Assembly: GCA_938075675.1 (NCBI GenBank) | Contig: CALJHE010000003.1 | Location: 51,738-115,737, forward strand | DNA: 64,000 bases | Source: Candidatus Poseidoniaceae archaeon | Lineage (GTDB): Archaea > Thermoplasmatota > Poseidoniia > Poseidoniales > Poseidoniaceae | Reading direction: 5' to 3' | In this document: positions 13,441 to 48,428 of the stretch, one piece after another | Numbering within the stretch: position 1 is the first letter of the stretch | Layout of the letters: each line of letters opens with the position of its first letter | Notes under the pieces: model-generated | The model's database searches: none | What the model saw: the letters and a program-made list of their open reading frames with translations, nothing else | What the model was told of the DNA's origin: nothing | Position numbers and translations under genes: made by a program

Positions 13441-13461
13441 CATTCTAGATGTGTGAAATTA

Positions 13462-13534: not shown

Positions 13535-13569
13535 ATCGTTGGCGAACCGCCTCCCCTTTATGACGGCTT

Positions 13570-26393: not shown

Positions 26394-26467
26394 GGGGCCC
26401 GTAGCTTAGTTGGTTGGAGCACCCGGCTCATAACCGGGGGGTCAGGGGTTCAAGTCCCTTCGGGCCC
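26394..26467 (+). tRNA. tRNA-Met/Ile2 (anticodon CAT), elongator-type (G1:C72), CCA not encoded
   Basis: Hand-folded. Acceptor GGGCCCG/CGGGCCC, D-arm GCTT...GAGC, anticodon stem CCCGG/CCGGG with loop CTCATAA, T-arm AGGGG-TTCAAGT-CCCTT, discriminator A. Confidence 0.85.
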
Positions 26468-26553
26468 ACTTTTTAATCCCCGTCCGTTGGCTATTTTCTG
26501 AGCCATCACGGCGCAACGGTTATGAGGGTCTCATTACTGGGGTTGTTTGACAG

Positions 26554-27495
26554 GTGGTCTATATGTTGAAGCGTGCTCTGTTCCTTCTCGCCCTTTACCT
26601 ATGCTCGGTTATGATTGTTGCAGTTCCTGCTTCAGCTCAAGCACCGACCGCTGCAATTTCTCTTTCCTGCGCTCCAATTTCAATTAACATCGAAGTTAAG
26701 CCTGGTTCGACGTACAACGGTTTCACCACCTGTACCGCTAGCAATCCTACAACTTGGCAAGAGAAAATCAGCATTCTTGTAACCAGTGACGGATTAGCGA
26801 CTGCCGCTCCTGGTGACATGTACATCGGCGCAGGTGCAGAAGTCGATTTCCAGATTTCAGTTCGTGCTACACCTTACATGGTTATGCAAAGCCGAACACT
26901 CTCAGTCTCTGCTACGGTGCAAGAAATTAACAGTCTACCACCGCCAAACGTTGCATCGTCACAGAACAACATGATTGTCAACATCATGCAGTATTCTTTG
27001 GTTCAGGTTGAAGCAGTCGAACCTTTCGTACAGTTGATGCCGAAGAAAGACAAGAACTTCGAATTCAAAGTTTACAATCTCGGTAATCAAATAGATTTCA
27101 TGAAGGTAGGAATTACAGAATCAAGCCGTGAGAACCTCGAAGAAGCAGGGTTCACGATCAACTTGCCAGCAGTGAAGGTTCAGATTGACGCAATCCCAAC
27201 AGCAACGAAGGTTCGAGTTATGGCCCGTACCCCTAAGACGCAAGGTTGGAGTGACGCATACCACGTTCTCGACTTTTACGCTGAATCTGAATTCGCTTGT
27301 AACAACGGTGGATGTATCCGAGAATCTCAAATGATTACTGTGTATGTCCGTGGTGTCTATCTCCCCGGTTTCGAAATCGTTCCGGCAATCTCGATGATTG
27401 CACTGGCAGCAGCAGTTGCTGGCCGGCGTTTCGTTGAAGAGCGTGAAGAAGACGAAGAAAACGTCGTCTGGTACGAGTCAGCCCCCGGCCTGTGA
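26554..27495 (+). CDS. hypothetical secreted protein, C-terminal TM anchor with short acidic tail
   Basis: Signal peptide (…VAVPASAQA). C-terminus AISMIALAAAVAGRRFVEEREEDEE. GTG start in track, with an in-frame ATG at 26563. Confidence 0.45.
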   Translation: MVYMLKRALFLLALYLCSVMIVAVPASAQAPTAAISLSCAPISINIEVKPGSTYNGFTTCTASNPTTWQEKISILVTSDGLATAAPGDMYIGAGAEVDFQISVRATPYMVMQSRTLSVSATVQEINSLPPPNVASSQNNMIVNIMQYSLVQVEAVEPFVQLMPKKDKNFEFKVYNLGNQIDFMKVGITESSRENLEEAGFTINLPAVKVQIDAIPTATKVRVMARTPKTQGWSDAYHVLDFYAESEFACNNGGCIRESQMITVYVRGVYLPGFEIVPAISMIALAAAVAGRRFVEEREEDEENVVWYESAPGL

Positions 27496-32941: not shown

Positions 32942-35900
32942 ATGGAACAAATAACTGGCACAAAAAGCACTGCGCCAGCGGCACCGTTGGGATGGCTTAT
33001 CGCCCCCCTAGCAGTTCTGCTCGCACTCGCAGCTATCAAGCTCGTCGGCATTGACTTCGAGCTTACCGCAGATAACTTGGCACCGATGTTGATCGTCGGC
33101 GCCGCAGGCATCCTGGGTCTGGTCCCGTCGATGCTTGACCAATCCAAATCCGCATCAGTTTCCAAGGCCACTCTTTCCCTCTCCACTTTGGCCGTGGCGC
33201 TTATCGGTGCTCAGGCAATTTACATGCTTGACCATGGAGCATTCTCTGGTCTCCTGTTTGCTTTCGTTACGTTTGGCGTTCATTTCATGAGCAGCCGTGG
33301 CCGACACGAACTTGCGACCATCATCGTATTCATCGCTATGGGTGTAAACGTTGGAATGTTCATCGCATCTGATGCACTCACCACGCTACCTGAGATTTAC
33401 AATCTGGCAGCAGAGGGTGAACAACAAAGTTTGGTTTCAACATTCAACTTGAAAAACCAGGCTGTAGGCTACCTCTTCTTCTCACACCTTACAGTTTTTA
33501 CTCTCGTCGGTGTGTTGGTTGCAACCCTCGCCCGGGGTGTAATTACTCCTGTTGGTGAAGCCGGTTGGTTCAGTTTCTTGAACAACGATACGAGTTCAAA
33601 GTTCAACAAGAACAACCTTCCTCTACAAATTGCATTGACCGTTTGGGCTTTGGCTCACATCGGCAGTCTTTGGCACTTTGAGACTGTTAGCATTGCTGAC
33701 AAACTCGGAATTACTTCAGCAGCAGATTACCACGGCATCGTTGGCTATTGGCAAGCGTTCTTCACTGGAATTGTGGCAATTGTTGTTGCAGGTATGTACT
33801 CAGAACGATGGCACACTCGTGCCATGACCCTCGGTTCTCTATGGGTGCTCTACGTTGTTTCGTCTTGGTACGATGCAGGAATGTTTTCGATGGATCTCCT
33901 CGAAGGCAACTGGGGCAGTTTGATTTGGCTCGGACTTACCTTCTTCATCGGCGTCGGTATTTACTCAATTTCAACCCACGAAAAGTGGGGTGGCTGGGTT
34001 AACCGTGACGATCACGAATACTCCGGCGCTCGTAAGTTCTGGAATCAACACTGGTCCAGTGTACTGATTGGTCTCGCATTCTTCTTTGGTTTAGTCATCC
34101 GAACACAATGGTATGTTGTACCATCAATGAACGCTTTCGGAACCGGAAACTGGGACATGACCGGGGGTTCTGACCCTTGGTACATGAAGCGTGTCGTCGA
34201 TTACATTCTAGCAAACAACGCACACCTTATTTTCGATGCAGACCGCTCCTATCCAATAGGTGGGATCAACCCTCGACCTCCGATTTTCACTTGGTCTGTT
34301 GCAGTTGTTGCAACGCTTCTTGAACCGTTCTTTAGCAACGGTGATGCAGTTTGGTGGGCTATACTCTCCCTTCCTGCAATTTACGGTGCTCTCACCATTC
34401 TACCGGTGGCTTACATCGCACGTGAACACATCAACGAAAAGGCTGCAGTTGTCGCTGCTTGGCTGATTGCTTTCATGCCGGCTCACGTGAGTCACACGAC
34501 ATGGGCACTTGCTGACCACGACGCTTTCATCATGCTCTTCATCACACTCGGATTCATGTTCTGGCTTCGAGCGGTGAAGTATGCAGGTAGCGAGCGATTG
34601 TTGCGCTCCTCATCCCCATCGGCTTTGTCATTCATAAACGCATTTACCGCCGTCACGCAAGAACGCCGTGCCGCACTATCAGCCGCAGTTCTTGCCGGTG
34701 TGAGTTTCGGTATCGTTTCGCTTGGGTGGAAAGGTTTCGTCGTCGGTCCGTCAATTATCTTCCTGGCATACGCTGCTCAGGTCGCACTCAACATGTTCCG
34801 CCGCCGAGATTCAACGACACTCAACGTCTTGTTCCTCACCATGCTTGCTGTGAACTTCTTGATGGCCCTTCCTTTCTATGGTCACCCTCAAATCGACCTC
34901 ATGCTTGATGGAACTGGCCTTCAACCGTTCTTGTTTATCGTGATCTTTACGCTAGCAATCAGTTTCGTTACCACTGGATTCCGTGACAAGCCATGGTTGC
35001 TTGTCCTCGGTGTTCTTGCTGGAACTGGAACAATTTTCTTCATTGTATTGTGGCTCCTCAAAGAAGCGAACCTCTCCAATGCTTGGGATGTCCTTTTCAC
35101 CGGCAGTGGCTATTTCACGAAGACCAAGATTTTCGGAACTGTTGCTGAAGCAAATGCCCCAAACCGTGGACAGTTGTTTGCACAATTCGGACCGATTACC
35201 TTTGTCCTTTCACTTGTTATGGGTATTCTCTGCATTTGGTCGGCTCTACGTGATCGAAAGCAAACAAAGCTCGTATTTGGCGTCTGGATTCTCGCTGCCT
35301 CGTTCATGGCTTGGACTGCAGCACGTTTCATGTTCAATGCAACACCTGCAATTGCAGTTCTCGGCGCTTGGGGAATTGTTTCCCTTTGGAAGTGGGCAAA
35401 CTGGGAAGGCATGGTTAAAACATGGAAGAAGATGGGAATTCGTTCTCCAGAAGACCGTATCCGTGGTGCACGCAAGGCCCTTTGGCGCACTCCTTCCTTC
35501 TCTGCAATCATGCTCGTCATGATTATGTTGTTTGGACAACAGTTCACCTATGGTCTTGATGCTGCTATCCCTTCCAGCAACAATGCAGAAGACGATATTG
35601 ATGAAACAATTTACAACCTCATCCCTGATGTATTCCGCTGGGAAATCGGCGGTTTTTCGTTACTTGACGACAGTACTTACGACGGAAACTGGTATCTCGG
35701 TTCTTTCGGTTCTGGATTTAATGACAACGGCTGGAACTCGGCATATGAGTGGCTTGCTGAACAGGATCAAGACATGAAATATTCTGAGCGCCCTGCCTTC
35801 GTCTCTTGGTGGGACTATGGTTTCCAAGCCCTCGATACTGGTGAGCATCCGTCTGTATCCGATAACTTCCAAACAGGAATTCCTGCTACCGGTAACATGT

Positions 35901-38900
35901 TACTTGCTCGAAGCCAAGAAGACCTCGTATCGATGTTTATTTGGCAACTCGGTCAAGGCGACTTGACTTACAATGTGGCGAACACAGGGAACTCAGAGTT
36001 TACAAACGGTTACCAGAGCATCGTCGGGTCATACCTCACCGCCGAGCAAATGAAAATCTTCAACGAAATTTCGACCAGTGTCGATACCGATGAAAGAGTT
36101 TCATTTGCAAAGTTAAACAGCTACGAAGTCTATCGCACGAACGACGATACAGTCTTGGCGAGAGGATACCATCATACCGACGGAGTGTTTGATGACTCTA
36201 CACAGTACTGGAGAGTTTACGATGAAGGGGAACGCCTCCTTTGTACCGATTCGCTTTCCACTACATGTGTTGATGGTGACTGGTCTTCAGAAGCAGAAGC
36301 GGAAAACACCTTCTCGAACAATATTCGTACTGGAAATGACAACATCAATCGGGTCACTCACTACATTATCGGAGACTATTGGTACACCGCTGACCTCATC
36401 GAGGAATATGGATCTGTATCCACAAACCTCCACCGGTCAAACACAAGATTGGCACTCACCGTTCAACTCCTCTCCAACAGCCTCGACTCAGGAGATATCA
36501 TTGACATGTATGACGATCTCATCAACATGGAAGGCTATTACACCGTACAAGATTACGACGGTGCACCAGGCGAAACAGTTGACCGTGACCACGAAATCCG
36601 CTACTATGCTATCGATAACCGGTTGTACCCTCGTGCGGGACGTTACACTGCCGACATGAACTACAACCAAGGTCAACCCATGGGAATCTTTGGCGCACCG
36701 ACGATTCTTAGCGGCCAAGATGTTTCCACTTACATGGATGAAGTCTACGAAACCATCCGTGGCGAATTCCCAGACGAAATGACCCGTGCTGAAGTTGACG
36801 AAGCGATTACCCAAGATTTCCTTAACCAACAATCTGGTGCAGATATCGATCCGCTGCAAGTCCAAGACGTCCGTGTCGACCACAATTCTGCGTTCTTCGA
36901 CACCATGCTCGCACGAGCATATGTTGGATACGGTGCATCAACGCTAGGCGTAGATGCTGGCTCATCCAACCCTCAACCTGCTCAGCATTTCGGTCAATCC
37001 GGTAGCCCCGGAAGCATTTTGAGTCAAGGACTGCCTTTGCCAGGTGCAATGACCAACCACTTCGTTATCTCGAACTGGTACTCACCTGAAGCAAACTCTT
37101 CGGTTACCGCAGAAGAGCAAACAGTAGGTATCTCCTCAACCAACACATTGGTTAAGATTCTCAAGTACTACTCCGGTGCAGAAATATCCGGTCAAGTCAC
37201 CATGTCTGATAATGGACAGCCATTGCCTGGTGTTCGCTTGCTTATTGAGCGAGACGCATTCTCCGGTGAAGGTGCAGAAGATTTGGACCCAGATACATAC
37301 TGGGTCCCAATTGGCTTTACAGATGCTGATGAAAACGGCCAATGGTCGTTCGATGCACCTGCTGGTCGAATCCGTGTCAGCGTATACGCTGGCGACTTCG
37401 ACCCAACTGTTGCGCAAGACAACATCCGCTCTGGTGCATTCTCGCAAGGTCTTGGGGACATCCTAACAGAAACCAACGACGATCGAACCATCAACGACAT
37501 TACGGCCATCCTCGGCGAAGTTGCGAACATGAGTTGGCTCGGTGAAAACCAACACAACATCACTGCTGAGCAAGCAGACAGCAACGCTCCAGTCGGTGCC
37601 GATTTCGACATCGCAGTTGAAAGCAGCGGTATCTCTGGAGAAGTGACATGGAGTGGCCATGAATCATTCGACGGCGATGCACTGGTGAGTACAGAGTTCA
37701 TTCTGCGCAACATTTGGTCATTGACCGACAATTACACACTGACGACCACCAACGGCTCTTTCACTTCATCCGACAGCAGAATCCTGCAGGGCTCTGGAGA
37801 AGCAACCTTTGTCGAAAACGGTACATTTGAAAGCGATGGTGTCGCCTTTGCAGACGACTTTACTGGAACCTTTACCCGTTCCATCGGCGATAAGCGAGTT
37901 TACACCAGTAACGGTACATGGGACGGTAAAGGAACACTTCTTGCTTCATGGATCGCTGAAGAGAATGTCTTGGATTGCTTGGATAACGAAACAGCACCTA
38001 TGCCTGAAAATTCCACAGTATGTATTCAGGACAGCACAACTTCACCGGTCACATACTTGTTGGATGGCGCTGTTGAAGCAAACGGTCGTTTGACTTCCGA
38101 TGGCATCTCGACTCTGGTTACAGAACACGTTGGTGATTCGTTTGAAGCAACAGGTTCTTTCGAAGGCACTGGTACTCTCAACGGCACAGGCTTATTCATT
38201 GGTGTTGGATCTTTCAGCGGTGAAATGGTTCAGCCTGGTTCATTCTACCTCACCGGTCTTTTACCTGGTGTTTACAACATGATTGCTCAACTTGACAACG
38301 GCAAAGAAGTTCTCCTTCCAGACCCAGTCAATGTTGGCATTTCTCCATCGTATGACCTTGCCATGACAATGCCTGGCTCCATCTTTGAAGATACACTGCA
38401 AGATTTCTATGAAGAAAAGCTTGTCAATGAAGTCATTGAATGGGTTGATACAGACCTCGGAATGGATTCATTGGTCGAAATACACACCGATGAGGATGGA
38501 AACTTCTCGTATGGTCCTATCGCATCTGGAGAATACTTCTACCGCGTTGACATCGACAACGATGGCTGGTATGAACTAAACGAAACGATTTATGCACGTG
38601 GTGAATCTGAAAACTTCACACTCGCTATGGATGTACCTGAGATGTACGACATCTCTCTACAGTTGACATCACCAGTTGACCCACAAACGCAAACTCCGTA
38701 TGCGGATGTGGCTCAAAGAGTCGTCACATTTACCAATTCAGACCCACTGTTCGGTCCCCTCAATGCAACTTCTGATGAAACCGGGATGGTTTACATCGAA
38801 CTGCCAATGGGTGCGTACACAATATCTGACGAATCTGGCGATGACTACATTCTGTTCGATTATGTTGAACTCAACAATGAAGACGTCACCATGAGCAGTG

Positions 38901-41900
38901 CCTATGCAATTGCAACCTACGTCAATGGTAGTATTCGTGCTCCTGACGGCGGTTTGTTCTCCGCTGAATACACCTATGCTGACTGGGCTGCTCAAGAGGC
39001 AGTTTACAAGTTTGAACAAAGCCAACCAGCATCAGGTCTTGAAGTCAATTTCGTTGCCAACGACCTCGCCTTTTCAACAACCGTTGAAACGGATGGAAAT
39101 TTCAGCATGCGCCTGCCAAGTGGAAACACCTTCCACATGACAACACTTAGCCTTGTTTCCCAGATGTCTTCTGGTCAACTTGTGGTTTTGAGCGGAGATG
39201 CAGAGATGGATATCGGACTCATGTACCTCGAGCCGACCGTCGCAACGATGGGTCTTGTCTACCTCTACGACAACACTTCGCTCTGGGATGGACTCGCACC
39301 AGGATATGCTGCACAAGAAGTCGTGGCAACTGATTCAACCGGACTTGAGTGGAGAACAACCATTGACGACCAAGGTGGCTTTGCATTCGACCTCCAACCA
39401 GGCGACTGGGATTTCACAGTTGATGAAGAACTGCTCAATTCGACGACTGTAACGGACTACGCAATCCTCGATAACGAAGGAATTGCTCCGAACTCTGTTG
39501 AATTGTTTGTCAGTCCGGAACCGTTGACTATTGAACTCAATATCTTCATGGACTCTGGAGGAGATGGTATCTTCGCAAACGGAACTGCTGTGACTCCAGC
39601 GTTCTCGTTGATTCCACTCAATAACCACGGACAACAGTACAACTTTACTTCGAATGACTACACTGCAGCTGGGAACATTTCCGTTGTCTTAGAGCCGGGA
39701 CTGTACAGTATCGATTTCAACGAAACCGCAGCCGACGATGAGAACGCAACGGATTACAACCTACTCGGCGATTCAACCTTTGAGACAATGATTGTTGGAA
39801 TTGAAGCATATGAAGACGCTGTTTCGTTTGCTCTACGCAATGAATACCTTGTAACCGGACAACTTTCAAACTCGTCCGGTGACGGTGTCGAAAAGCAATT
39901 CTTGCTCCGAAACGATGCTGACGACTTGTGGCACAACATCGCATCTGACGTGAATGGAAGTTTTGCCTCCTACGTCCCTGCGGGCGATTGGGTGGCTATT
40001 GTCGCACCGTTCTCTGCGTCCAATGAATCCATGGAAACCTACCGTGAGGCGTTCACAGTCAGCGAAGACTCTTCTTTGCGTACTGGATTGAACTTTACTT
40101 CCATCGAAGTGGTCACATTGAACTTCCAAGTACAGGAATTGAACACCGACTCGAACATGAGCGATGTCCGTATCACGCTTGTGAGTCATGACGGATTTGG
40201 AAACATTACGCTTTCGAAGTCGGACCAATTTGGTAATGTTAGCGAAACCATCATGCCCGGTACTTGGAGCATGTTCCTGAATCAAACAGAACCTCAGCGC
40301 CAATGGAGTCTCGACACATTCGATGCTCCTTTCTCCACTGACAACGCTGTTGATGGTGTTCTCGAACTTGGCATTGTTTCACCTGAACTCATGGTTGAAA
40401 TCGGCGGTAAAGTCTTCTGGGACCTTAACGACGACGATCTTCCTGGTGGTACAGAGGGTATTGCCAACACCACGGTAAGTATTACTGGCTTGAACAACAC
40501 TGAGATTGATACCAATGTCACAACCGATGAATTCGGTGTTTGGTCATTGCTTGTACCGATTCAAGACGAGTACCAAGTTTCAGTTTCGAAGGAAGGATTC
40601 AGTACTGAAGTCTACAATGTGTCGAATACCAGTGCTTACCCCGTCTATGCAGTCCCTGAATCATATGATATCGAGATGACAGCAGGAAACGTTACTGTTT
40701 CTGGGAACGTCACTGACATCAATGACGCTGAGCGACTGAATGGCTCGATCGTTACATTGTACCCGAGTACTGGTATGGTCGGAGAGACAATTGTTGTTGA
40801 ATCTCAATTTAATAACGATGAACTCACTTGGTCTGCAGTCATTTCACCTGGTGAATGGATTGTTGTTGTTACCGAAGCAAACCCTGGCGAAAACGGCGGT
40901 GGAGTTGCAATTGGTCTTCTTGACGCTAGCATCTCCGAAGGCGCAACTCTTGACCTCGAAATGTCACTTGGTGGTTGGCTCGACCTTTCCACCTCTTGGA
41001 CCGACATCAAACTCGATGAATATCACGCTGGTTCATCCAGTAATGGCTCGATTTACATGAACGAGACTGCAGTTGTGACCATGACCATCGGTGACGACTT
41101 GGAATGGGACTTGCCGGTTGGAGAGGATGGGACAATCAGCGTCCTCATGCCAGCATCTGAGATTGAGATGGACTCTTCTTTCACCACGATTCAGCATGAC
41201 TTGCAACTTGAGATGGAATACATCGGCGGTGCAGTAACACTCGTCGCTGAAGGTCGCTCACCAGTTTCTTTGTCGTACACACGAAGCATCAACTCTGATA
41301 CCTCGATTAGTATGGTTGAAGGAAGTGTAACTGGTGCAACCGTTGATTCTGAGCTGGCATTTACTGCGATTGAAGAAGGAGAGGGATACCAGCAGATTGA
41401 ATTCGAACTTCAGTTGAATTACGAAGGAACGGAAACTGTTCAAGTCTTCGATGTCCTTGGACAAATTCTTGTTGCTCCTGATGAAGCTGACTGGACGATT
41501 GAGTTCAAGAACGGTTCGAGCTATGAGGATTCATACGAAGTCTCCCTTGGAATCGGAAACAGTACCGACGATACAACTGTTCAGTCCTCGGCAACAGTTG
41601 GTGTCCGAATCACTGTAGCCAATCAATCATCGGCTTGGCATCTTGAAGACCCTCACACACTGAAGGTTCGTATGCTAACTGATAGCACTCCATCAAGTGA
41701 AATCTCAGTTACCGTTCAAGTGCCTCAAATCTACGGATTGGAAACTTCTGAAGAAGACGAATCCGTCGGTATTGGTGCAGGCGGAAGCAGTATGTTTGGG
41801 TTTGTACTTGAGAACACTGGCAACGGTGACGACTCTTACACCATTGAACTCTCAGATAATATCCCGGAAGGCTGGGAAGTAACTCCGATGAGTTCGGTGA

Positions 41901-42508
41901 TCACCATCGCTAAGGGCGACACACGCTCGCAGATGTTCACTGCATTCGCTCCAGATGATTTTGATTCTGGTTCAAAGGTTGTAACTGTCACCGTAACGAG
42001 TGAAAACGGCATCAATACCACTTCATTCGATGTGGAAATTGTCAAGGCCAGTATTGTACTCAAGGATGTCGACCAAGGAACAATCCAAGAAATGTCAAAC
42101 ATATACGCGAATCGAGCTGGTAAACTGATTATTCCAATCGAGAACATTGGCAAATTGGGCAGTGACGATATTGTAGTTTCTGCTAGCATACAAGGCGGTC
42201 GAACCCTAGGTGCTCAAACCGTTTCGATCGCTCCAGAGGGAATGACAAACGTCACATTCGACATGGAGGCTTCCGATGCATCTGGCCTAGTACGATTCGA
42301 TGTACGTGTTGAAATCGTTGGCGAAGACAGTGAATTTACCGACAGTGCTGTTCAAGAGTTTGATTTCAGTATCGAGTATGCGATTGATGAGTCGAATGAA
42401 GATTCCAATTCCGACTGGTTTACCTTTGTCATCGTACTTCTCGGTGCCTTGGTGCTCTACGGAGGTGTTCGCATCTCCCGACGCAGTAACAAGGGCTCAC
42501 GGTTCTGA
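32942..42508 (+). CDS. aglB: giant oligosaccharyltransferase fusion: N-terminal polytopic domain + AglB/STT3 catalytic core + ~2200-aa extracellular beta-rich extension + C-terminal TM anchor
   Basis: WWDYG motif at nt 35807-35821 (aa about 975). STT3 first-loop motif FDADRSYPIGG at about 34232. Many TM helices between aa 20-880. Long Thr/Ser/Asn-rich extracellular region follows. The final 30 aa are a TM helix plus RISRRSNKGSRF. ATG at 32942 is preferred over the non-ATG track start at 32885. Confidence 0.75.
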   Translation: MEQITGTKSTAPAAPLGWLIAPLAVLLALAAIKLVGIDFELTADNLAPMLIVGAAGILGLVPSMLDQSKSASVSKATLSLSTLAVALIGAQAIYMLDHGAFSGLLFAFVTFGVHFMSSRGRHELATIIVFIAMGVNVGMFIASDALTTLPEIYNLAAEGEQQSLVSTFNLKNQAVGYLFFSHLTVFTLVGVLVATLARGVITPVGEAGWFSFLNNDTSSKFNKNNLPLQIALTVWALAHIGSLWHFETVSIADKLGITSAADYHGIVGYWQAFFTGIVAIVVAGMYSERWHTRAMTLGSLWVLYVVSSWYDAGMFSMDLLEGNWGSLIWLGLTFFIGVGIYSISTHEKWGGWVNRDDHEYSGARKFWNQHWSSVLIGLAFFFGLVIRTQWYVVPSMNAFGTGNWDMTGGSDPWYMKRVVDYILANNAHLIFDADRSYPIGGINPRPPIFTWSVAVVATLLEPFFSNGDAVWWAILSLPAIYGALTILPVAYIAREHINEKAAVVAAWLIAFMPAHVSHTTWALADHDAFIMLFITLGFMFWLRAVKYAGSERLLRSSSPSALSFINAFTAVTQERRAALSAAVLAGVSFGIVSLGWKGFVVGPSIIFLAYAAQVALNMFRRRDSTTLNVLFLTMLAVNFLMALPFYGHPQIDLMLDGTGLQPFLFIVIFTLAISFVTTGFRDKPWLLVLGVLAGTGTIFFIVLWLLKEANLSNAWDVLFTGSGYFTKTKIFGTVAEANAPNRGQLFAQFGPITFVLSLVMGILCIWSALRDRKQTKLVFGVWILAASFMAWTAARFMFNATPAIAVLGAWGIVSLWKWANWEGMVKTWKKMGIRSPEDRIRGARKALWRTPSFSAIMLVMIMLFGQQFTYGLDAAIPSSNNAEDDIDETIYNLIPDVFRWEIGGFSLLDDSTYDGNWYLGSFGSGFNDNGWNSAYEWLAEQDQDMKYSERPAFVSWWDYGFQALDTGEHPSVSDNFQTGIPATGNMLLARSQEDLVSMFIWQLGQGDLTYNVANTGNSEFTNGYQSIVGSYLTAEQMKIFNEISTSVDTDERVSFAKLNSYEVYRTNDDTVLARGYHHTDGVFDDSTQYWRVYDEGERLLCTDSLSTTCVDGDWSSEAEAENTFSNNIRTGNDNINRVTHYIIGDYWYTADLIEEYGSVSTNLHRSNTRLALTVQLLSNSLDSGDIIDMYDDLINMEGYYTVQDYDGAPGETVDRDHEIRYYAIDNRLYPRAGRYTADMNYNQGQPMGIFGAPTILSGQDVSTYMDEVYETIRGEFPDEMTRAEVDEAITQDFLNQQSGADIDPLQVQDVRVDHNSAFFDTMLARAYVGYGASTLGVDAGSSNPQPAQHFGQSGSPGSILSQGLPLPGAMTNHFVISNWYSPEANSSVTAEEQTVGISSTNTLVKILKYYSGAEISGQVTMSDNGQPLPGVRLLIERDAFSGEGAEDLDPDTYWVPIGFTDADENGQWSFDAPAGRIRVSVYAGDFDPTVAQDNIRSGAFSQGLGDILTETNDDRTINDITAILGEVANMSWLGENQHNITAEQADSNAPVGADFDIAVESSGISGEVTWSGHESFDGDALVSTEFILRNIWSLTDNYTLTTTNGSFTSSDSRILQGSGEATFVENGTFESDGVAFADDFTGTFTRSIGDKRVYTSNGTWDGKGTLLASWIAEENVLDCLDNETAPMPENSTVCIQDSTTSPVTYLLDGAVEANGRLTSDGISTLVTEHVGDSFEATGSFEGTGTLNGTGLFIGVGSFSGEMVQPGSFYLTGLLPGVYNMIAQLDNGKEVLLPDPVNVGISPSYDLAMTMPGSIFEDTLQDFYEEKLVNEVIEWVDTDLGMDSLVEIHTDEDGNFSYGPIASGEYFYRVDIDNDGWYELNETIYARGESENFTLAMDVPEMYDISLQLTSPVDPQTQTPYADVAQRVVTFTNSDPLFGPLNATSDETGMVYIELPMGAYTISDESGDDYILFDYVELNNEDVTMSSAYAIATYVNGSIRAPDGGLFSAEYTYADWAAQEAVYKFEQSQPASGLEVNFVANDLAFSTTVETDGNFSMRLPSGNTFHMTTLSLVSQMSSGQLVVLSGDAEMDIGLMYLEPTVATMGLVYLYDNTSLWDGLAPGYAAQEVVATDSTGLEWRTTIDDQGGFAFDLQPGDWDFTVDEELLNSTTVTDYAILDNEGIAPNSVELFVSPEPLTIELNIFMDSGGDGIFANGTAVTPAFSLIPLNNHGQQYNFTSNDYTAAGNISVVLEPGLYSIDFNETAADDENATDYNLLGDSTFETMIVGIEAYEDAVSFALRNEYLVTGQLSNSSGDGVEKQFLLRNDADDLWHNIASDVNGSFASYVPAGDWVAIVAPFSASNESMETYREAFTVSEDSSLRTGLNFTSIEVVTLNFQVQELNTDSNMSDVRITLVSHDGFGNITLSKSDQFGNVSETIMPGTWSMFLNQTEPQRQWSLDTFDAPFSTDNAVDGVLELGIVSPELMVEIGGKVFWDLNDDDLPGGTEGIANTTVSITGLNNTEIDTNVTTDEFGVWSLLVPIQDEYQVSVSKEGFSTEVYNVSNTSAYPVYAVPESYDIEMTAGNVTVSGNVTDINDAERLNGSIVTLYPSTGMVGETIVVESQFNNDELTWSAVISPGEWIVVVTEANPGENGGGVAIGLLDASISEGATLDLEMSLGGWLDLSTSWTDIKLDEYHAGSSSNGSIYMNETAVVTMTIGDDLEWDLPVGEDGTISVLMPASEIEMDSSFTTIQHDLQLEMEYIGGAVTLVAEGRSPVSLSYTRSINSDTSISMVEGSVTGATVDSELAFTAIEEGEGYQQIEFELQLNYEGTETVQVFDVLGQILVAPDEADWTIEFKNGSSYEDSYEVSLGIGNSTDDTTVQSSATVGVRITVANQSSAWHLEDPHTLKVRMLTDSTPSSEISVTVQVPQIYGLETSEEDESVGIGAGGSSMFGFVLENTGNGDDSYTIELSDNIPEGWEVTPMSSVITIAKGDTRSQMFTAFAPDDFDSGSKVVTVTVTSENGINTTSFDVEIVKASIVLKDVDQGTIQEMSNIYANRAGKLIIPIENIGKLGSDDIVVSASIQGGRTLGAQTVSIAPEGMTNVTFDMEASDASGLVRFDVRVEIVGEDSEFTDSAVQEFDFSIEYAIDESNEDSNSDWFTFVIVLLGALVLYGGVRISRRSNKGSRF

Positions 42509-42565: not shown

Positions 42566-43798
42566 ATGGAAGGGCTTGACAATGTGGAACTGCTTCCTGA
42601 GCCTGAGGATTCACGTATACTTTCTGTTGTAGATCCCGCTGTTGTAGGATTCCAAGACCAGTGGCGGTCAGAAGTTACTGGCTGGGCTCCAATGCAGGCT
42701 GTGCCAGTACCCCGCATACGCCGGCGTAAGATGCTCGTAACCAACGGCGTCGCCTTCTCTGTTCTTGTCATTCTGCTGCTGTATGTTTGGAATTCTGGAC
42801 TGCTCTTCCTTGAGATTCCTCCTCCAAAATCGGAATGGGCTGTCGAACAGTCTCAATTTTCGGATTTATCTGATATTGGCTTGTCCGGTGAAGGCGTTCG
42901 AGTCTGTATGGTTGACACTGGAATAGATCTCAGTAATCCGGCATTTTCGAATCTGCAGGTTACATTCAAGGACATGATCGGTACTTCTACCTCACCGGTA
43001 GACTACGGGTATGTTGCCCACGGGACGTTGATGGCAGGGATTCTTGTTTCGAATGATCATCAGCTCGGTGTAGCGCCGAACGTTGACCTTGCGATGGTAG
43101 CGGCTCTTGGCTCTGATGAGGATGACATGAACAGCGGTTCTGAAGACACAGTTGCCCGCTCAATTCGCTGGTGTCAAGATGAATATCAAGCACACATCAT
43201 ATCACTCTCCTTAGGTGGGGAGCAGAATGTTGAGATGCATACCGAGGGAAGCAGTGTCTCTGCTGTCCGAAGAGCAGTTGACTCGGGAATTTTCGTCGTT
43301 GCCGCTGCAGGTAACGATGGCGGTGGAAGCGATGACGGTTTGGTATCTGTTCCCGGTAATGTCCCTCGAGTCATTACCGTAGGCGCCTCTACCGAGTCTC
43401 AGAGTGTTTGGGCAAACTCTTCATCTGGGTCACAATCCTTGGTGAACGGTGAACAGCGGCAACACCCTCACATGAAACCAGAAGTAATTGCTCCTGGCGA
43501 GAATATAATCAGCACTGGTATCGGCGACACTTGGTTTTCCAGCAGTGGGACATCAGATTCAACGGTGTTTGTCACTGGTGCGCTGTCGCTTCTACTCGAG
43601 GCGTTCCCCGAATACAAGGCGACATCAGAATCAGACGGATCATGTATAGATGCAGTGAAGAACGCACTCATGGAATCAGCTTTGAAATACGACAATACTA
43701 CAACACACGATGACCGATGGGGATACGGTCAATTACAGGCTTTGGACTGGTATTCTTACCTTGATAATCAATCACCTGTGTGTTCGTTTTCCGATTAA
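42566..43798 (+). CDS. membrane-anchored subtilisin-like serine peptidase (S8)
   Basis: Catalytic triad motifs VCMVDTGID (Asp), HGTLMAG (His), GTSDSTVFVTGALSLL (Ser). N-terminal TM helix. 57 nt downstream of the AglB fusion stop. Confidence 0.75.
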   Translation: MEGLDNVELLPEPEDSRILSVVDPAVVGFQDQWRSEVTGWAPMQAVPVPRIRRRKMLVTNGVAFSVLVILLLYVWNSGLLFLEIPPPKSEWAVEQSQFSDLSDIGLSGEGVRVCMVDTGIDLSNPAFSNLQVTFKDMIGTSTSPVDYGYVAHGTLMAGILVSNDHQLGVAPNVDLAMVAALGSDEDDMNSGSEDTVARSIRWCQDEYQAHIISLSLGGEQNVEMHTEGSSVSAVRRAVDSGIFVVAAAGNDGGGSDDGLVSVPGNVPRVITVGASTESQSVWANSSSGSQSLVNGEQRQHPHMKPEVIAPGENIISTGIGDTWFSSSGTSDSTVFVTGALSLLLEAFPEYKATSESDGSCIDAVKNALMESALKYDNTTTHDDRWGYGQLQALDWYSYLDNQSPVCSFSD

Positions 43799-43971: not shown

Positions 43972-46900
43972 GTGTCTATTTTGAAGAACACAACATCACA
44001 CAAGAGCATATCGCTGGTCGCACTCCTTTTGCTTTCAACGCTAACAGGGCTTATTGCTATACCAACTGCATCTGCAGTGAATGAAACCAAGTCTGGAATC
44101 ATTACCGGAACTGAAACTTGGACAGGGACCATGAACCTTAACGGCGACGTTGTTGTTGCTGAAGGCGCTAAGCTTGTTGTCAACGCCGGGACAGTGATCA
44201 ATATCCCATACGGTTACTACATCGACGTCGAAGGTGCAATCTGTATCGGTGACAGTGCTTGTGGTGCGAGTTCTGGCTCATCAGGCAATCAAGCTCGGTT
44301 CATATGGTCGACTCCTACCGATTATACCATCCAAGGCCGATGCTACTCCAACAGCACAAGCAATCCAAACTACAACAGCGATACTGCTTGCGGATCAGGC
44401 ATGATTATTCGCTCAACGATTGACCAGGCGATTACTTCGCTGAAGTATGCACATTTTGAAAACGCATACGGTCATCCTTTCGAAACCAACCAAGTGAGTG
44501 GTATGCAATACGGTGCCTTGGTTTTCGATGGTTCTACAACCTCTGCACAGGGTCTGTCGTTTGACAACATCAATACTTCGAACGTTATGGCTATCGACCT
44601 TGCTGCGCCGAGTATCTCTGATTCCACCTTCACTCTAGGTGTCGATGGAAACGGATACGATGCAGCAGCAGTTCGTGCTTACGGTGCTGGTGCAGGTATT
44701 TTGGCTACAATGGAAGTCTCGAACTCTGTTTTTACAGGAGATACTGCTGCAGAATGTGGCAACGATGGTCGTAGCCTAATTTACGTCGAAAGTTCGTACG
44801 TAGATTTCTCTAATCTTGAAATCAAGGATAACTCCTATGGATTCTTCATGAAAGAAAGTTCGGGCTCGATTACTGACTCGGATGTTAACGTGAAGTGCAG
44901 TGGAATTGACACGAACTCTCACAAAGTCACGGGCACAATCAACCACACCCTTGTCATCAACGATAACACCATTACAACCGCAGATGGTTCTGGAATTACT
45001 GCCTATGACGGTGCGATTGTCGTTGCAGAGCGCAACATTATCTCCGGTGCAGCGTCTGGATCAGGCTTTGGTATCCGCTCCTCAACAGTTACCGCAAACA
45101 ACAACGTCATCGGCCCAATTGGTGGCTGGAACGGATTGTGGATTTACGGAACATCCGATGTTGTTGCGGAGAACAATACCATTCAGGACACAGCCAAAGA
45201 AGCTGTTCTCATTGGTGAATACCACTATCTCGACCAAGGATGGAATGTCCCAACACCAACAGCAGCCCGTCTTTACCTCGCCAACAACCAAATTTCAAAC
45301 AACACGGGTATCTGTAACTCTCAAATGTACGGTGGAGACTTCCAATGCCCTGCAATACACATGTTCATGTCTTCTGCAACCCTGTACGATAACACAGTCA
45401 CGAACAACGGTGGCGACGGAATGAGAATCAAAGCGAGCATCGTCAATGCTCAACGAAACACCATTGAAGTCTCTGGGTTTGCAGCCAACATTTCACTGTT
45501 CGATGATAACTACGGTAACAAGTACGGCTCAATTGCTTACTTCTCTGAGAACACATACACGAATGCGACACAGGTCTACAACATTACCGAATCCCGTGTT
45601 ACTGTACAGTCTGAATTCATCCCAGATGCGGGCGGTAACGAAATATATCCTGTGCAAATGAGTTGGCTTGGCCCTGAATGTCCATATGTTCTCGATGAGT
45701 GTTTGCAAGTTCCTCCAACTTCAATCATGCCTCCAGCCTTCATGCCTTTGGCTCTGGAAGTTGTCGAAAACTCCACAGTGTTCTCGTACGCAAACCTTCA
45801 GAACTTCGATTCCTCCAAGATTCACGTTCAGAACCAAAACTCCGCCTGGGGTAGCCAAGTTCGTGAAGGGGAACTTGTTCGATACCAAGTCAAGGCACAA
45901 AACAGCAACGTCGTTGACGCAACTGTAATCATCCGAGATGCTTCTGGATTGCCGCTTTACACACTCACCACAGATGCGTTTGGTTTCACGCCAGAAGTTT
46001 CACTCCCATCCGACTTCCTCCTCGACCGTAACTGGAATCACAATGTTGGAGAAACAAATGTCCAGATTCCCGGAGTCCTCGATTCCGAAGGCAATCCAGT
46101 CTTCATTGACGAAAATTCCTGCGCCGATGGATACGATAATGACGGAGATACCAAGGTCGACTCCGAGGATGGAGATTGTACAGGTGGCCGAGAGTTACCT
46201 TTCTACACCGTAGAAGCGTACAAATTTGGAAAGGGTCAGAAGGATTTCAATTTCGTTCTGAGTGGAGCCATCGACGATGTCATTAACCTCGTGAACTTGA
46301 AACCAAGCGTCACTGTGACTCAAAACGATGGATATTCATTCGCTACGACTGCCACTCTAACTGGAGGCGCATGGGATGGAATTTCGGGACCATATGCGCT
46401 CGACCAAATCGCATATGACAGCCAATTCGGTGTCGTTAAGCGTGTGGAGATTCAACCCCCTGGCTCTACCGATTGGTACAACGCCGTGGACACCTCGGGT
46501 GCGAACGGAATGGTTACGAAGTCGACGCATCCGTTCAAAACATGGTCGTTTGAATGGGATTTGTCAGCACATCCAGAGGGTGAGGGAGACGTCACCTTCC
46601 GCGTCCGTTCATATGACGGGTTGGACTACTCGCCTGTAGAAGTACGAAAGTACAAACTGAATCTCGTGGCTCCGACAACTCTTGTGAATTCGCCGGCTGA
46701 TGGTTCATCGCATACCAACGGCAAAGTGACATTCACCGGTACTTCCAGTGATCCGTATTCGGGTACATGGGGCAGCGATATCAAATCCATTTGGTTCGAC
46801 ATCAATGGTCCAAACGGTTACACTGCAAACTTCGATGTATCGGGTTCGACTGCATGGGCATACGACTGGATTTTCCAAGAATTGCAAACAGGGCAGTATG

Positions 46901-48369: not shown

Positions 48370-48428
48370 AGCATCTTCTGCTCACAGGAGCGGAAGTGTT
48401 GAAGAGTAGAAAAACGCGAGGTGAGAAT

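What the first reader, a model, noticed from the sequence alone, without database searches (positions are those of the whole stretch)
32942..42508. 3207-aa oligosaccharyltransferase: AglB/STT3 core embedded in a giant multidomain surface protein
Seen in sequence: the canonical STT3 features are present (first-loop D-rich motif FDADRSYPIGG, 13-TM-like core, WWDYG at aa about 975). They are preceded by an extra roughly 400-aa polytopic domain and followed by roughly 2200 aa of extracellular beta-rich sequence, ending in a TM helix plus a basic tail. Established knowledge: characterised archaeal AglBs are about 600-1050 aa, so a form three times longer with a second membrane anchor is architecturally unusual. 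Inference: the extension could tether the enzyme to the cell wall or bind glycoprotein substrates, or this is a fused S-layer-like protein.
Basis: partly seen in the sequence, partly recalled or inferred. Interest (0 to 1): 0.85.

Follow-up and report, generated by a model that had tools for sequence, protein, structure and literature searches.

The report
Giant oligosaccharyltransferase of marine archaea
This gene encodes the enzyme that attaches sugars to surface proteins (AglB/STT3) in a Marine Group II archaeon. It is built at more than three times the usual size, with an extra membrane domain of unknown fold and a long, sugar-decorated, doubly anchored outer chain. The same design is conserved across this whole abundant ocean lineage, and I found no paper describing it.

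Summary
The finding is real. One uninterrupted ORF (ATG 32942 to stop 42508, 3188 aa; 3207 aa only from an upstream GTG) encodes an AglB/STT3 oligosaccharyltransferase with every catalytic motif invariant.

- **Not an artefact.** The identical protein occurs on 5 independently assembled contigs. More than 120 homologue clusters keep a median length of 3185 aa down to 50% identity. dN/dS is 0.03-0.12 in every region.
- **Host.** The window comes from a Poseidoniales (Marine Group II) archaeon. The 80 best of 462 relatives found among species genomes come from 80 different assemblies, nearly all titled as Poseidoniales or left unclassified, inside a conserved gene block.
- **Anatomy.** It has a confidently modelled 10-helix N-terminal membrane domain with no sequence or structural relative. 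Next come the STT3 core and an expanded canonical periplasmic domain (to about aa 1490). After that lie about 1670 aa of beta-sandwich domains, then one C-terminal membrane helix with a basic tail.
- **Relatives.** Other marine Thermoplasmata carry 2.1-2.8 kaa versions that lack the N-domain.
- **Sequons.** The outer chain has twice the expected number of N-glycosylation sequons, at conserved positions.

The best reading is an active transferase whose extension is a glycosylated, doubly anchored envelope scaffold. That function is inferred, not shown. I rate it a new variant of a known kind, of moderate to high interest.

The parts
32942..42508 (+). Complete giant aglB gene: 3188 codons plus stop, predicted 347 kDa, pI 4.07.
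   Evidence: ORF list and translation. The ATG start is the one used by gene callers, and the identical protein occurs on 5 independent contigs. Full-length homologues. Mass and pI.
32942..34021 (+). N-terminal add-on (aa 1-360): 10 membrane helices, no Cys. The invariant RGRHE (119-123) and ERWHTR (288-293) motifs lie on the predicted cytoplasmic face. It has no detectable relative.
34022..35557 (+). STT3/AglB membrane core (aa 361-872), consistent with 13 membrane helices.
   Evidence: Pfam PF02516 at 55 bits against cut-off 24.5. TIGR04154 aligned over aa 375-993. phmmer to 3WAJ over residues 9-436. Helix pattern in the model. Structural matches are only OST catalytic subunits.
34172..34174 (+). 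D411, the first catalytic Asp of external loop 1, in GGSDPWY (aa 408-414).
   Evidence: Aligns to GGNDPWY of A. fulgidus AglB-L. Invariant in 62 family members and across the wider alignment.
34232..34264 (+). It is a conserved loop-1 element, not the catalytic Asp.
   Evidence: Position. Aligns to 'FDPFTYYPYG' of A. fulgidus AglB-L. D432, D434, R435, Y437, P438, G440 and G441 are invariant.
34514..34522 (+). D525-H526-D527, the second acidic (DXD-type) motif.
   Evidence: Aligns to 'NDHH' of A. fulgidus AglB-L. Invariant and nearly invariant across the wider alignment.
35138..35149 (+). T733-V-A-E736, the TIXE/SVSE-type motif of external loop 5.
   Evidence: T and E are invariant in the 23-sequence alignment that spans the 3.2 kaa forms, the 2.1-2.8 kaa forms and fragments, and in the 62-sequence family alignment. 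Naming it the TIXE/SVSE motif rests on established knowledge.
35807..35821 (+). WWDYG motif (aa 956-960), followed by the invariant DNFQ (974-977).
   Evidence: Aligns to WWDYG of A. fulgidus AglB-L and to the AglB-S1/S2 domains 3VU0 and 3VGP. Invariant.
35558..37411 (+). Canonical AglB periplasmic domain, enlarged (aa 873-1490). It ends in a first prealbumin-like beta-sandwich at aa 1400-1490. It contains no sequon before aa 1385.
   Evidence: The family profile aligns A. fulgidus AglB-L residues 548-594 and 686-828 to this region, e.g. 'VKIFERVKGAVVTGKVS' with 'VKILKYYSGAEISGQVT'. Weak Pfam AglB_core-like hit. Per-100-aa identity 0.44-0.82. Sequon map.
36101..36580 (+). Insertion (aa about 1054-1213) specific to the 3.2 kaa form, inside the periplasmic catalytic domain. 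It is modelled partly as a beta-sheet with helices and holds the conserved pair C1101/C1109.
   Evidence: Gap in the collinear HMM matches to the shorter relatives. Model secondary structure. Invariant Cys residues.
37412..38221 (+). Highly conserved Gly/Thr-rich module (aa 1491-1760), specific to the 3.2 kaa form. Fold unknown. It holds the conserved pair C1679/C1694 and several invariant sequons.
   Evidence: Identity 0.62-0.70 with almost no gaps. Not matched in the shorter relatives. No Pfam or PDB hit. Sequons at 1529, 1539, 1657, 1690 and 1747 are conserved in all 30 homologues.
38222..40891 (+). Array of about ten divergent units of about 95 aa (aa 1761-2650), of the prealbumin/transthyretin type (CarboxypepD_reg, NOMO-like). 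This is the main sequon-rich zone.
   Evidence: Pfam CarboxypepD_reg at 58.8 bits against cut-off 32.3, in 3 stretches, plus weak NOMO-like hits. The motif 'D..G.F....PG.Y/W' recurs at roughly 95-aa spacing. Weak internal-repeat matches. Collinear with the shorter relatives, whose mixed profile hits human NOMO2 at E 1e-25. The unit count is an estimate.
40892..41686 (+). Region with no assigned domain family (aa 2651-2915), specific to the 3.2 kaa form.
   Evidence: No family hit. Not matched in the shorter relatives. Identity 0.43-0.55 with no gaps.
41687..42331 (+). Two Ig-like domains of CARDB / NPCBM_assoc type next to the membrane (aa 2916-3130).
   Evidence: NCBIfam choice_anch_T partial match over aa 2916-3039, E 7.8e-8, below cut-off. 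Weak Pfam NPCBM_assoc, CARDB and FixG_C hits. Collinear with the C-terminal ends of the shorter relatives.
42410..42505 (+). C-terminal membrane helix (aa 3157-3178) and short basic cytoplasmic tail (aa 3179-3188), with the conserved pattern YGG[VIL][KR]..R...[RK]F.
   Evidence: Hydropathy. All 36 family C-termini inspected, of both the 3.2 kaa and the 2.1-2.8 kaa forms, end in a hydrophobic stretch followed by basic residues. Near-invariant I, L, L, Y, G, G, R and terminal F.
42566..43798 (+). Subtilase (peptidase S8, 410 aa, one N-terminal hydrophobic helix) directly downstream on the same strand. This neighbour is conserved.
   Evidence: Pfam Peptidase_S8, E 5e-36. Mycosin-like in NCBIfam but below cut-off. 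Found directly after aglB in 60 related loci.
43972..48369 (+). 1465-aa surface protein with a signal peptide, beta-helix and Big_7 domains and a membrane helix near aa 1358. It is the next gene on the same strand and is conserved.
   Evidence: Pfam hits. Sequence features. Found downstream in 55 related loci.

Best explanation
This is the AglB oligosaccharyltransferase of a Marine Group II archaeon (order Poseidoniales; the closest matches are titled Poseidoniales or Poseidoniaceae), in the giant form that is standard for that order.

Shown:
- The STT3 core (aa 361-872) and the periplasmic catalytic domain (aa 873-1490) carry every catalytic motif unchanged. The protein should therefore transfer a lipid-linked glycan to Asn of N-X-S/T sequons on the outer face of the membrane, as A. 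fulgidus AglB does.
- Three additions are fixed parts of the protein and are under strong purifying selection. The first is a 10-helix N-terminal membrane domain with no known relative. The second is about 1670 aa of beta-sandwich domains: a conserved Gly/Thr-rich module, then about ten prealbumin-like units, then two Ig-like domains. The third is a final membrane helix with a short basic tail.

Inferred:
- Both ends of the outer chain are held in the membrane, so the extension forms a loop or arch of fixed size over the cell surface.
- That arch is probably N-glycosylated itself at conserved sites, possibly by its own or a neighbouring catalytic domain.
- It most likely acts as a structural scaffold that fixes the enzyme within the cell envelope, next to the many acidic, sequon-rich, membrane-anchored surface proteins this organism exports.
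- The conserved residues of the N-domain face the cytoplasm, which suggests contact with a cytoplasmic or lipid partner. What that partner is remains unknown.
For: Identity and catalytic competence:
- Pfam STT3 scores above its cut-off.
- The family profile matches A. fulgidus AglB-L at E 1e-32, with four matched stretches spread from its N-terminus to residue 828 of 875.
- The structural matches of the model are only OST catalytic subunits.
- D411, D525/H526/D527, E736 and WWDYG are invariant.

Genuine gene:
- The identical protein is found on 5 independent contigs.
- 120 homologue clusters have a median length of 3185 aa, with a 5-95% range of 3155-3201.
- dN/dS is 0.03-0.12 in each of six regions, and 0.04-0.07 for the extension in the two unsaturated comparisons.

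Lineage-wide:
- The 80 best of 462 relatives found among species genomes lie in 80 different assemblies; those with an informative title are Poseidoniales, of both families.
- The gene block CarS-purD-aglB-S8-beta-helix is conserved.
- Collinear 2.1-2.8 kaa relatives occur in Thermoplasmata and Marine Group III.

Scaffold rather than adhesin:
- There are almost no indels. Each domain is conserved individually, and the domains are not recent repeats of one another.
- All 36 family C-termini inspected end in a membrane helix plus basic tail.

Glycosylated extension:
- 46 sequons are observed against 23.5 expected from composition.
- Positional conservation is 0.57 against 0.35 for control tripeptides, and 31 of 46 sequons are kept in at least half of the homologues.

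Transcription: a gene annotated aglB in a Marine Group II MAG is transcribed in coastal metatranscriptomes.

N-domain: the model is confident, and its helix pattern read with the positive-inside rule puts the conserved motifs on the cytoplasmic face.
Against: - No experiment or structure bears on the extension. I could not model aa 1201-3188, so the domain count and the 'arch' geometry are inferred from motifs and weak family hits.
- The DK/MI motif of the Ser/Thr pocket could not be located.
- Sequon enrichment shows potential for glycosylation, not that it occurs.
- A scaffold role is hard to tell apart from a substrate-handling role, or from a surface protein that is later cleaved off.
- A conserved protease gene lies directly downstream.
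- I did not establish that this is the only aglB in the genome.
- The fold search of the N-domain covered solved structures only, because the AlphaFold database library was unavailable.
Confidence: 0.55

Rival explanations
1. Fusion precursor. The gene makes one polypeptide that is then cut, perhaps by the subtilase encoded directly downstream. The products would be an ordinary-sized AglB and a separate, C-terminally anchored surface glycoprotein that may be the S-layer-like coat of these cells.
For: A peptidase S8 gene with one N-terminal hydrophobic helix follows aglB on the same strand in 60 related loci. The extension resembles the other surface proteins of the window: acidic, sequon-rich and anchored by a C-terminal helix. 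The canonical AglB part ends at a domain boundary near aa 1490. Some shorter relatives end in a PGF-CTERM-like signal typical of processed surface proteins.
Against: No cleavage motif was identified. The region just after aa 1490 is among the most conserved parts of the protein (identity 0.62-0.76), which fits a folded module rather than a linker. The fusion is kept in every relative across two deeply diverged forms, and no split versions were found other than apparent fragments. Gene adjacency alone does not show that the protease acts on this protein.
Confidence: 0.2
2. Single-chain holoenzyme. The extra membrane domain, the outer beta-sandwich domains and the final membrane helix would do in one polypeptide what the accessory subunits do in the eukaryotic OST complex. 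That means holding or presenting substrate proteins and lipid-linked glycan. The C-terminal helix would pack back against the catalytic membrane core.
For: The total of about 24 membrane helices plus outer beta-sandwich domains and a single-helix C-terminal anchor resembles in outline the yeast and human complexes, a comparison that rests on established knowledge of structures such as 6C26 and 6S7O. The conserved residues of the C-terminal helix are spaced about 3 apart, on one face, suggesting specific helix packing. The module at aa 1491-1760 next to the catalytic domain is as conserved as the core.
Confidence: 0.15
3. Adhesin. The extension would bind particles, polymers or other cells, with the transferase core simply serving as its membrane anchor.
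For: The domain types (CarboxypepD_reg, CARDB, SpaA-like and SdrD_B-like in some homologues) are common in adhesins. The window encodes several other giant surface proteins.
Against: Adhesins usually vary in repeat number and evolve quickly. Here the length is fixed within about 1.5%, indels are almost absent, and dN/dS is 0.04-0.07. Both ends are membrane-anchored, which limits reach. The catalytic motifs are invariant, so the core is not a mere anchor.
Confidence: 0.07
4. Artefact. The long ORF would be an assembly chimera, or a read-through caused by a sequencing error joining aglB to a neighbouring surface-protein gene.
For: None was found. The only related observation is that some shorter relatives appear split into pieces on one contig.
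Against: The identical 3188-aa product occurs on 5 contigs from different runs. More than 120 full-length homologue clusters reach down to 50% identity. Purifying selection acts across all regions. Composition is uniform across the gene.
Confidence: 0.01

Closest known systems
Archaeoglobus fulgidus AglB-L (PDB 3WAJ/3WAK/5GMY/7E9S), the structurally characterised archaeal oligosaccharyltransferase
   Same: The STT3-type membrane core is the same, with the catalytic Asp in loop 1, the second acidic motif, the TIXE-type loop-5 motif and WWDYG. The periplasmic domain ends in a beta-sandwich ('VKIF..G..V.GKV' type). The match is collinear from residue 5 to 828 of the 875-residue crystallised chain (native protein 868 aa).
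   Different: The native A. fulgidus enzyme is 868 aa. The equivalent part here is about 1130 aa because of insertions. It is preceded by a 360-aa 10-helix domain and followed by about 1670 aa plus a second membrane anchor. The lysine-type DK motif seen in A. fulgidus (E613...K618) could not be identified here.
2.1-2.8 kaa AglB proteins of uncultivated Thermoplasmata, Marine Group III and related MAGs (for example MFA5772382.1, annotated as 'carboxypeptidase regulatory-like domain-containing protein')
   Same: They are homologous and collinear in the core, the periplasmic domain, the prealbumin-like array, the terminal Ig-like pair and the C-terminal helix with basic tail.
   Different: They lack the N-terminal 10-helix domain and three insertions (about aa 1054-1213, 1475-1750 and 2570-2870). 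Some end in a PGF-CTERM-like 'PGFE' signal, which the window protein does not have. The gene neighbourhood differs.
NOMO (nodal modulator, BOS complex subunit; PDB 9C7V chain B)
   Same: It is a long chain of prealbumin/transthyretin-like beta-sandwich domains on the non-cytoplasmic side of a membrane. It ends in a single membrane helix and a short tail; that description of NOMO is established knowledge. The mixed family profile matches NOMO2 at E 1e-25 over several domains through the shared 'TD..G.F.F..L.PG.Y' motif.
   Different: NOMO is not fused to an enzyme and has a signal peptide instead of an N-terminal membrane anchor. The window protein reaches the NOMO Pfam models only below cut-off (23.7 bits against 27). 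Neither it, nor the profile of its own 3.2 kaa family, nor a single shorter relative hits NOMO in the PDB. The resemblance is a shared domain type, not orthology.
Eukaryotic multi-subunit oligosaccharyltransferase (yeast OST, human OST-A and OST-B)
   Same: The catalytic subunit is homologous. In outline both have extra membrane helices and extra beta-rich domains on the glycosylating side, with single-helix anchors.
   Different: In eukaryotes the extras are separate subunits. No homology to them was detected here. The comparison is an analogy only.

Membership tests
STT3/AglB/PglB oligosaccharyltransferases (GT-C fold, CAZy GT66) | STT3-type polytopic membrane core recognised by the family model | tested here: met
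   Pfam PF02516 scores 55.0 bits against a cut-off of 24.5 over aa 399-669. phmmer to 3WAJ gives E 1.7e-8 and the family profile gives E 1e-32. All 16 Foldseek hits with E < 1e-3 are OST catalytic subunits.
STT3/AglB/PglB oligosaccharyltransferases (GT-C fold, CAZy GT66) | Catalytic acidic residue in the first external loop (D47 of A. fulgidus AglB-L) | tested here: met
   D411 in GGSDPWY aligns to GGNDPWY. It is invariant in 62 and in 23 sequences.
STT3/AglB/PglB oligosaccharyltransferases (GT-C fold, CAZy GT66) | Second diacidic DXD-type motif | tested here: met
   D525-H526-D527 aligns to 'DHH' of A. fulgidus AglB-L. It is invariant in the family.
STT3/AglB/PglB oligosaccharyltransferases (GT-C fold, CAZy GT66) | TIXE/SVSE motif in external loop 5 | tested here: met
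   In T733-V-A-E736, T and E are invariant across the 23-sequence alignment that spans the 3.2 kaa forms, the 2.1-2.8 kaa forms and fragments. The pairwise alignment to A. fulgidus in this loop is of low confidence.
STT3/AglB/PglB oligosaccharyltransferases (GT-C fold, CAZy GT66) | WWDYG motif in the periplasmic domain | tested here: met
   aa 956-960 are invariant and align to WWDYG of 3WAJ, 3VU0 and 3VGP.
STT3/AglB/PglB oligosaccharyltransferases (GT-C fold, CAZy GT66) | DK or MI motif on the kinked helix forming the Ser/Thr pocket | tested here: inconclusive
   No DXXKXXX(M/I) or MXXIXXX(I/V/W) pattern (definitions from PMC3703281) could be placed with confidence. The model is below pLDDT 50 around aa 865-988. 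The paper itself says that these motifs often cannot be found without a structure.
STT3/AglB/PglB oligosaccharyltransferases (GT-C fold, CAZy GT66) | Transfer of lipid-linked glycan to Asn of N-X-S/T | not testable with these tools
   This needs an enzyme assay or genetics. Only the conservation of the motifs is shown.
TIGR04154 archaeo_STT3 (archaeosortase A system-associated subfamily) | Score at or above the curated cut-off of the subfamily model | tested here: not met
   The score is 177 bits against a cut-off of 450. It is the best NCBIfam match but not a member by NCBI's rule.
PGF-CTERM / archaeosortase A substrates | Pro-Gly-Phe motif immediately before a C-terminal membrane helix and basic tail | tested here: not met
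   The window protein has '...NSDWFTFVIVLL...RISRRSNKGSRF' with no PGF. Four shorter relatives (P0148, P0150, P0155, P0170) have PGFE or PSFE at that place.
NOMO / BOS complex subunit | Matches to the NOMO domain models above cut-off; orthology to NOMO | tested here: not met
   PF22902 scores 23.7 bits against 27 and PF23193 scores 17.9 against 27. There is no PDB hit for the window sequence or for its own family profile. Only the mixed profile with the shorter relatives hits NOMO2. The domain type is shared; membership is not claimed.
Eukaryotic OST accessory subunits (ribophorin I/II, OST48, DAD1, OST3/6) | Detectable homology to any accessory subunit | tested here: not met
Archaeal S-layer proteins | Forms the outermost paracrystalline lattice; very high abundance | not testable with these tools
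   There is no sequence criterion. It needs imaging or proteomics of Marine Group II cells.

The most novel reading that the evidence does not exclude
In Marine Group II archaea, and in shorter form in other marine Thermoplasmata, the oligosaccharyltransferase would not be a free-standing enzyme. It would be a built-in part of the cell envelope. Its 250-kDa glycosylated ectodomain, most of it the doubly anchored extension, would itself form a major element of the surface coat or set the width of the space beneath it. Glycosylation and envelope construction would then be physically coupled in one polypeptide. The orphan 10-helix N-domain would add a further, so far unknown, lipid- or partner-handling step.
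Probability: 0.15. Interest if true: 0.85.

Novelty: new variant of a known kind. Interest (0 to 1): 0.62.

Why it matters
Marine Group II archaea are among the most abundant archaea in the surface ocean. To my knowledge they have not been obtained in pure culture, and the few papers that mention both the group and an S-layer did not describe their envelope.

Every characterised AglB, PglB or STT3 catalytic subunit is a protein of roughly 600-1050 aa (established knowledge; A. fulgidus AglB-L is 868 aa). Here a whole order uses a 3.2 kaa form, and related lineages use 2.1-2.8 kaa forms. These contain a confidently folded membrane domain with no relative among solved structures, and a conserved, sequon-rich outer chain held in the membrane at both ends.

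If the extension is structural, it offers a first molecular handle on the envelope of these organisms. It would also be an example of an enzyme of protein glycosylation fused to what it may help to build.

Such proteins may have been overlooked for a practical reason. At least one comparative study removed sequences that were 'too long' (PMC4973528), and automatic names range from 'glycosyltransferase family 39 protein' to 'peptide transporter'.

Tried and rejected
- **Assembly chimera or frameshift.** Rejected on independent contigs, full-length homologues and dN/dS.
- **Extension as recent tandem repeats.** Rejected. HMMs of single domains find only themselves, plus matches at E of 0.003 or weaker. 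hhalign gives only weak alternative alignments.
- **NOMO homology of the window protein itself.** Not supported by the single sequence or by its own family profile. It appears only through the mixed profile.
- **Kinship between the terminal Ig-like pair and the nearby choice-of-anchor T protein (26554-27495).** There is no pairwise similarity.
- **Short AglB-like representatives as possible second paralogues.** Six of the ten clusters looked up hold 'partial' records or a 2150-2200 aa member, so those short entries are probably fragments of giant proteins; the other four could not be judged.
- **DK/MI motif.** It could not be placed.
- **Literature.** Searches for AglB or oligosaccharyltransferase together with Poseidoniales, Marine Group II or Thermoplasmatota found no description of this architecture.


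Full report
**1. The observation**

The window holds one long ORF on the + strand. Read mechanically it runs from a GTG at 32885 to the stop at 42508, giving 3207 aa. Gene callers on other assemblies chose this ATG, and it fits the lengths of the homologues.

- FDADRSYPIGG at aa 431-441.
- WWDYG at aa 956-960.
- A hydrophobic N-terminal stretch of about 360 aa.
- A long acidic stretch with no hydrophobic segment above the cut-off (D+E about 16-17%, K+R 2-6%).
- A single C-terminal hydrophobic helix at aa 3157-3178, followed by RISRRSNKGSRF.

**2. It is a real, intact gene**

- The identical 3188-aa protein is encoded on five contigs assembled from different sequencing runs. The four contigs shown share the same neighbours as far as each extends.
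- A search of 5.8 billion proteins returned 386 relatives. The best 120 clusters have a median length of 3185 aa, with a 5-95% range of 3155-3201, and reach down to 50% identity.
- In a 31-sequence alignment the fraction of gaps is close to zero along the whole length.
- Nei-Gojobori dN/dS against the two closest genomes is 0.03-0.12 in each of six regions. That includes the N-terminal domain (0.05-0.12) and the three parts of the extension (0.04-0.07).
- Base composition is even across the gene.

**3. Host and distribution**

A scan of one genome per species (GTDB) found 462 relatives. The 80 best come from 80 different assemblies. Those with an informative title are Poseidoniales (Marine Group II), of both Poseidoniaceae and Thalassarchaeaceae; many others are labelled only as unclassified archaea. 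The closest, at 98% identity in the core, is titled a Candidatus Poseidoniales MAG, and the next closest titled matches are Poseidoniaceae.

The gene sits in a block that is conserved across both families:

HD-domain gene - choice-of-anchor T protein - orf420 - CARDB protein (opposite strand) - CDP-archaeol synthase - purD - aglB - subtilase S8 - 1465-aa beta-helix surface protein

The subtilase follows aglB on the same strand in 60 loci, and the beta-helix protein follows in 55.

An exhaustive profile-free search of 1.84 billion cluster representatives with aa 1-1100 gave 789 hits, falling into two groups.
- **The 3.2 kaa form.** These proteins of about 3150-3230 aa mostly align from about residue 5 onward and reach down to 38% identity.
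- **The shorter form.** Many proteins of 2050-2780 aa align only from about residue 360, so they lack the N-terminal domain.

Source names for the shorter form and for its fragments include Thermoplasmata archaeon, Marine Group III euryarchaeote, Candidatus Poseidoniia and Methanomethylophilaceae. Six of the ten 'short' clusters I looked up hold 'partial' records or a 2150-2200 aa member, so those short entries are probably fragments.

**4. Anatomy**

- **(b) aa 361-872.** This is the STT3 membrane core.
- **(c) aa 873-1490.** This is the canonical AglB periplasmic domain, enlarged. The family profile aligns A. fulgidus AglB-L through WWDYG and on to its last beta-sandwich (residues 686-828), which corresponds to about aa 1370-1460 here. 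An insertion at about aa 1054-1213 is specific to the 3.2 kaa form.
- **(d) aa 1491-1760.** This Gly/Thr-rich module is as conserved as the core, is specific to the 3.2 kaa form, and has an unknown fold.
- **(e) aa 1761-2650.** This is an array of about ten divergent units of about 95 aa, of the prealbumin/transthyretin (CarboxypepD_reg) type. Pfam scores it above cut-off (58.8 bits against 32.3), and the motif 'D..G.F....PG.Y/W' recurs. The count is an estimate.
- **(f) aa 2651-2915.** No domain family could be assigned.
- **(g) aa 2916-3130.** Two Ig-like domains of CARDB/NPCBM_assoc type.
- **(h) aa 3157-3188.** A membrane helix and a basic tail.

The shorter form is collinear with (b), (c), (e), (g) and (h). 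All 36 family C-termini I inspected, of both forms, end in a hydrophobic stretch followed by basic residues. The long outer chain and the second anchor are therefore older than Marine Group II. The N-domain and three insertions were added in the Marine Group II line.

**5. Catalytic competence**

- D411 (GGSDPWY) aligns with the catalytic Asp region GGNDPWY of A. fulgidus AglB-L.
- D525-H526-D527 aligns with its DHH.
- WWDYG aligns with WWDYG.
- These residues, together with T733/E736 of the TIXE-type motif, are invariant in the family. They are invariant or nearly so in a wider alignment that includes the shorter form.
- All 16 significant Foldseek matches of the aa 1-1200 model are OST catalytic subunits (A. 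fulgidus AglB, human STT3A/B, yeast Stt3).
- The DK/MI motif could not be located. The model is poor around aa 865-988, and the literature warns that this motif is often invisible without a structure (PMC3703281).
It is a conserved loop element, not the catalytic Asp.

**6. What the extension is likely to do**

The facts that constrain its role are these.
- Its length is fixed and its sequence is under strong purifying selection.
- Its domains are individually conserved and are not recent copies of one another.
- It is tied to the membrane at both ends.
- The ectodomain (aa 873-3155) holds 46 N-X-S/T sequons where composition predicts 23.5. None lies before aa 1385, so all 46 fall in or just before the extension. 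They keep their positions in homologues far better than control tripeptides do: mean 0.57 against 0.35, and 31 of 46 are kept in at least half of 30 homologues, against 10 of 28 and 11 of 37 for the controls.
- The other large surface proteins of the window are likewise acidic and sequon-rich, and several have a hydrophobic helix near the C-terminus.

I infer a glycosylated arch of fixed size that places the enzyme in the envelope. I give this about even odds as the main role. The rivals are listed in section 8.

Transcription in the sea is indicated by a published metatranscriptome in which a gene annotated aglB of a Marine Group II MAG is enriched when that genus is active (PMC9723583). I could not confirm that it is this giant gene.

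**7. Comparison with known systems**

- **Closest characterised relative: A. fulgidus AglB-L.** The core, the motifs and the last beta-sandwich are the same. The size and the three additions differ.
- **Best NCBIfam model: TIGR04154.** It scores 177 bits against a cut-off of 450, so the protein is not a member of the archaeosortase-A-associated subfamily. It also lacks a PGF motif, although four shorter relatives have one.
- **NOMO.** A mixed family profile hits human NOMO2 at E 1e-25 through the shared prealbumin-like repeat. The window sequence, its own family profile and a single shorter relative do not, and the NOMO Pfam models stay below cut-off. This is a shared domain type with a similar overall layout (a chain of such domains, then one membrane helix), not membership.
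- **Eukaryotic OST accessory subunits.** No homology was found.

**8. Novelty, rivals and limits**

The proteins are in public databases under automatic names such as 'glycosyltransferase family 39 protein', 'STT3 domain-containing protein', 'hypothetical protein' and even 'peptide transporter'. Eight full-text searches found no paper describing a giant AglB in Marine Group II or in Thermoplasmatota. One phylogenetic study states that over-long sequences were removed (PMC4973528). The library lacks most subscription journals, so a description elsewhere cannot be excluded. I rate the finding a new variant of a known kind.

Rival readings and my estimate for each:
- Later cleavage into an ordinary enzyme and a separate surface protein, suggested by the conserved downstream subtilase: 0.2.
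- A substrate-handling platform analogous to the eukaryotic accessory subunits: 0.15.
- An adhesin: 0.07.

Open points:
- The fold and geometry of aa 1491-3188.
- The function of the N-domain.
- Whether the chain stays intact.
- Whether it is the only aglB in the genome.

Noticed in passing
window 24957-48369; loci L005-L084: An 11-gene block is conserved across both families of Marine Group II, Poseidoniaceae and Thalassarchaeaceae. Its order is HD-domain protein, choice-of-anchor T protein, orf420, CARDB protein, CDP-archaeol synthase, purD, aglB, subtilase S8 and a 1465-aa beta-helix protein. The last three are co-directional with short gaps, which suggests an operon for surface-protein maturation.
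   Followed up: partly
window 26554-27495 (+): This 313-aa protein is a full-length choice-of-anchor T family member (NCBIfam, 291.6 bits against cut-off 70). It has a C-terminal helix and a weak Heimdall-CTERM-like match. It shows no pairwise similarity to the end of AglB.
   Followed up: yes
P0148, P0150, P0155, P0170 (shorter AglB relatives), C-termini: Some of the 2.2-2.5 kaa AglB relatives end in 'PGFE' or 'PSFE' followed by a membrane helix and a basic tail. That is a PGF-CTERM-like archaeosortase signal, here on an oligosaccharyltransferase.
   Followed up: no
window 35336-35344 (aa 799-801, NAT): The sequon N799-A-T lies inside the STT3 membrane core ('FMFNATPAIAV'). It is conserved in all 30 homologues, and N799, A800 and P802 are invariant. 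It may be a structural motif rather than a glycosylation site.
   Followed up: no
window 16670-21562 (-): This 1630-aa secreted protein has six lamin-tail domains (Pfam LTD, E 4e-67), two phospholipase-D-like domains and a TSP3 repeat. It carries 22 sequons.
   Followed up: no
window 55821-61574 (+): This 1917-aa, very acidic (D+E 18.5%) secreted protein carries 28 sequons. Its only family hit is one weak TSP3 repeat.
   Followed up: no
window 51429-54721 (-): Two adjacent genes have archaeal type IV pilin-like N-termini (DUF7289, Pilin_N). One of them is 736 aa long.
   Followed up: no
window 48366-50954 (+): This 862-aa STAND-type NTPase (AAA_16, nSTAND6) has TPR repeats and a weak N-terminal HTH match. 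It lies next to the conserved block but was not found in any related locus; most loci end before or just past where it would lie, so that says little.
   Followed up: partly
L068 (JAOMAZ010000025.1): A single-cell assembly titled 'Deltaproteobacteria bacterium AH-558-G13' carries the complete Marine Group II gene block, including aglB. The contig is probably archaeal contamination or the record is mislabelled.
   Followed up: partly
P0255, P0307, P0308 (cluster 8): Three pieces of 954, 663 and 597 aa from one 1.48-Mb contig fall into the same cluster as a 2201-aa AglB. The giant gene seems to be split there, by frameshifts or sequencing errors.
   Followed up: no
window 7074-11238 (+); 13461-13535 (-); 26395-26469 (+): These are ordinary housekeeping content: the glycine cleavage genes gcvT and the two P-protein subunits, plus tRNA-Asn and tRNA-Met.
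   Followed up: no
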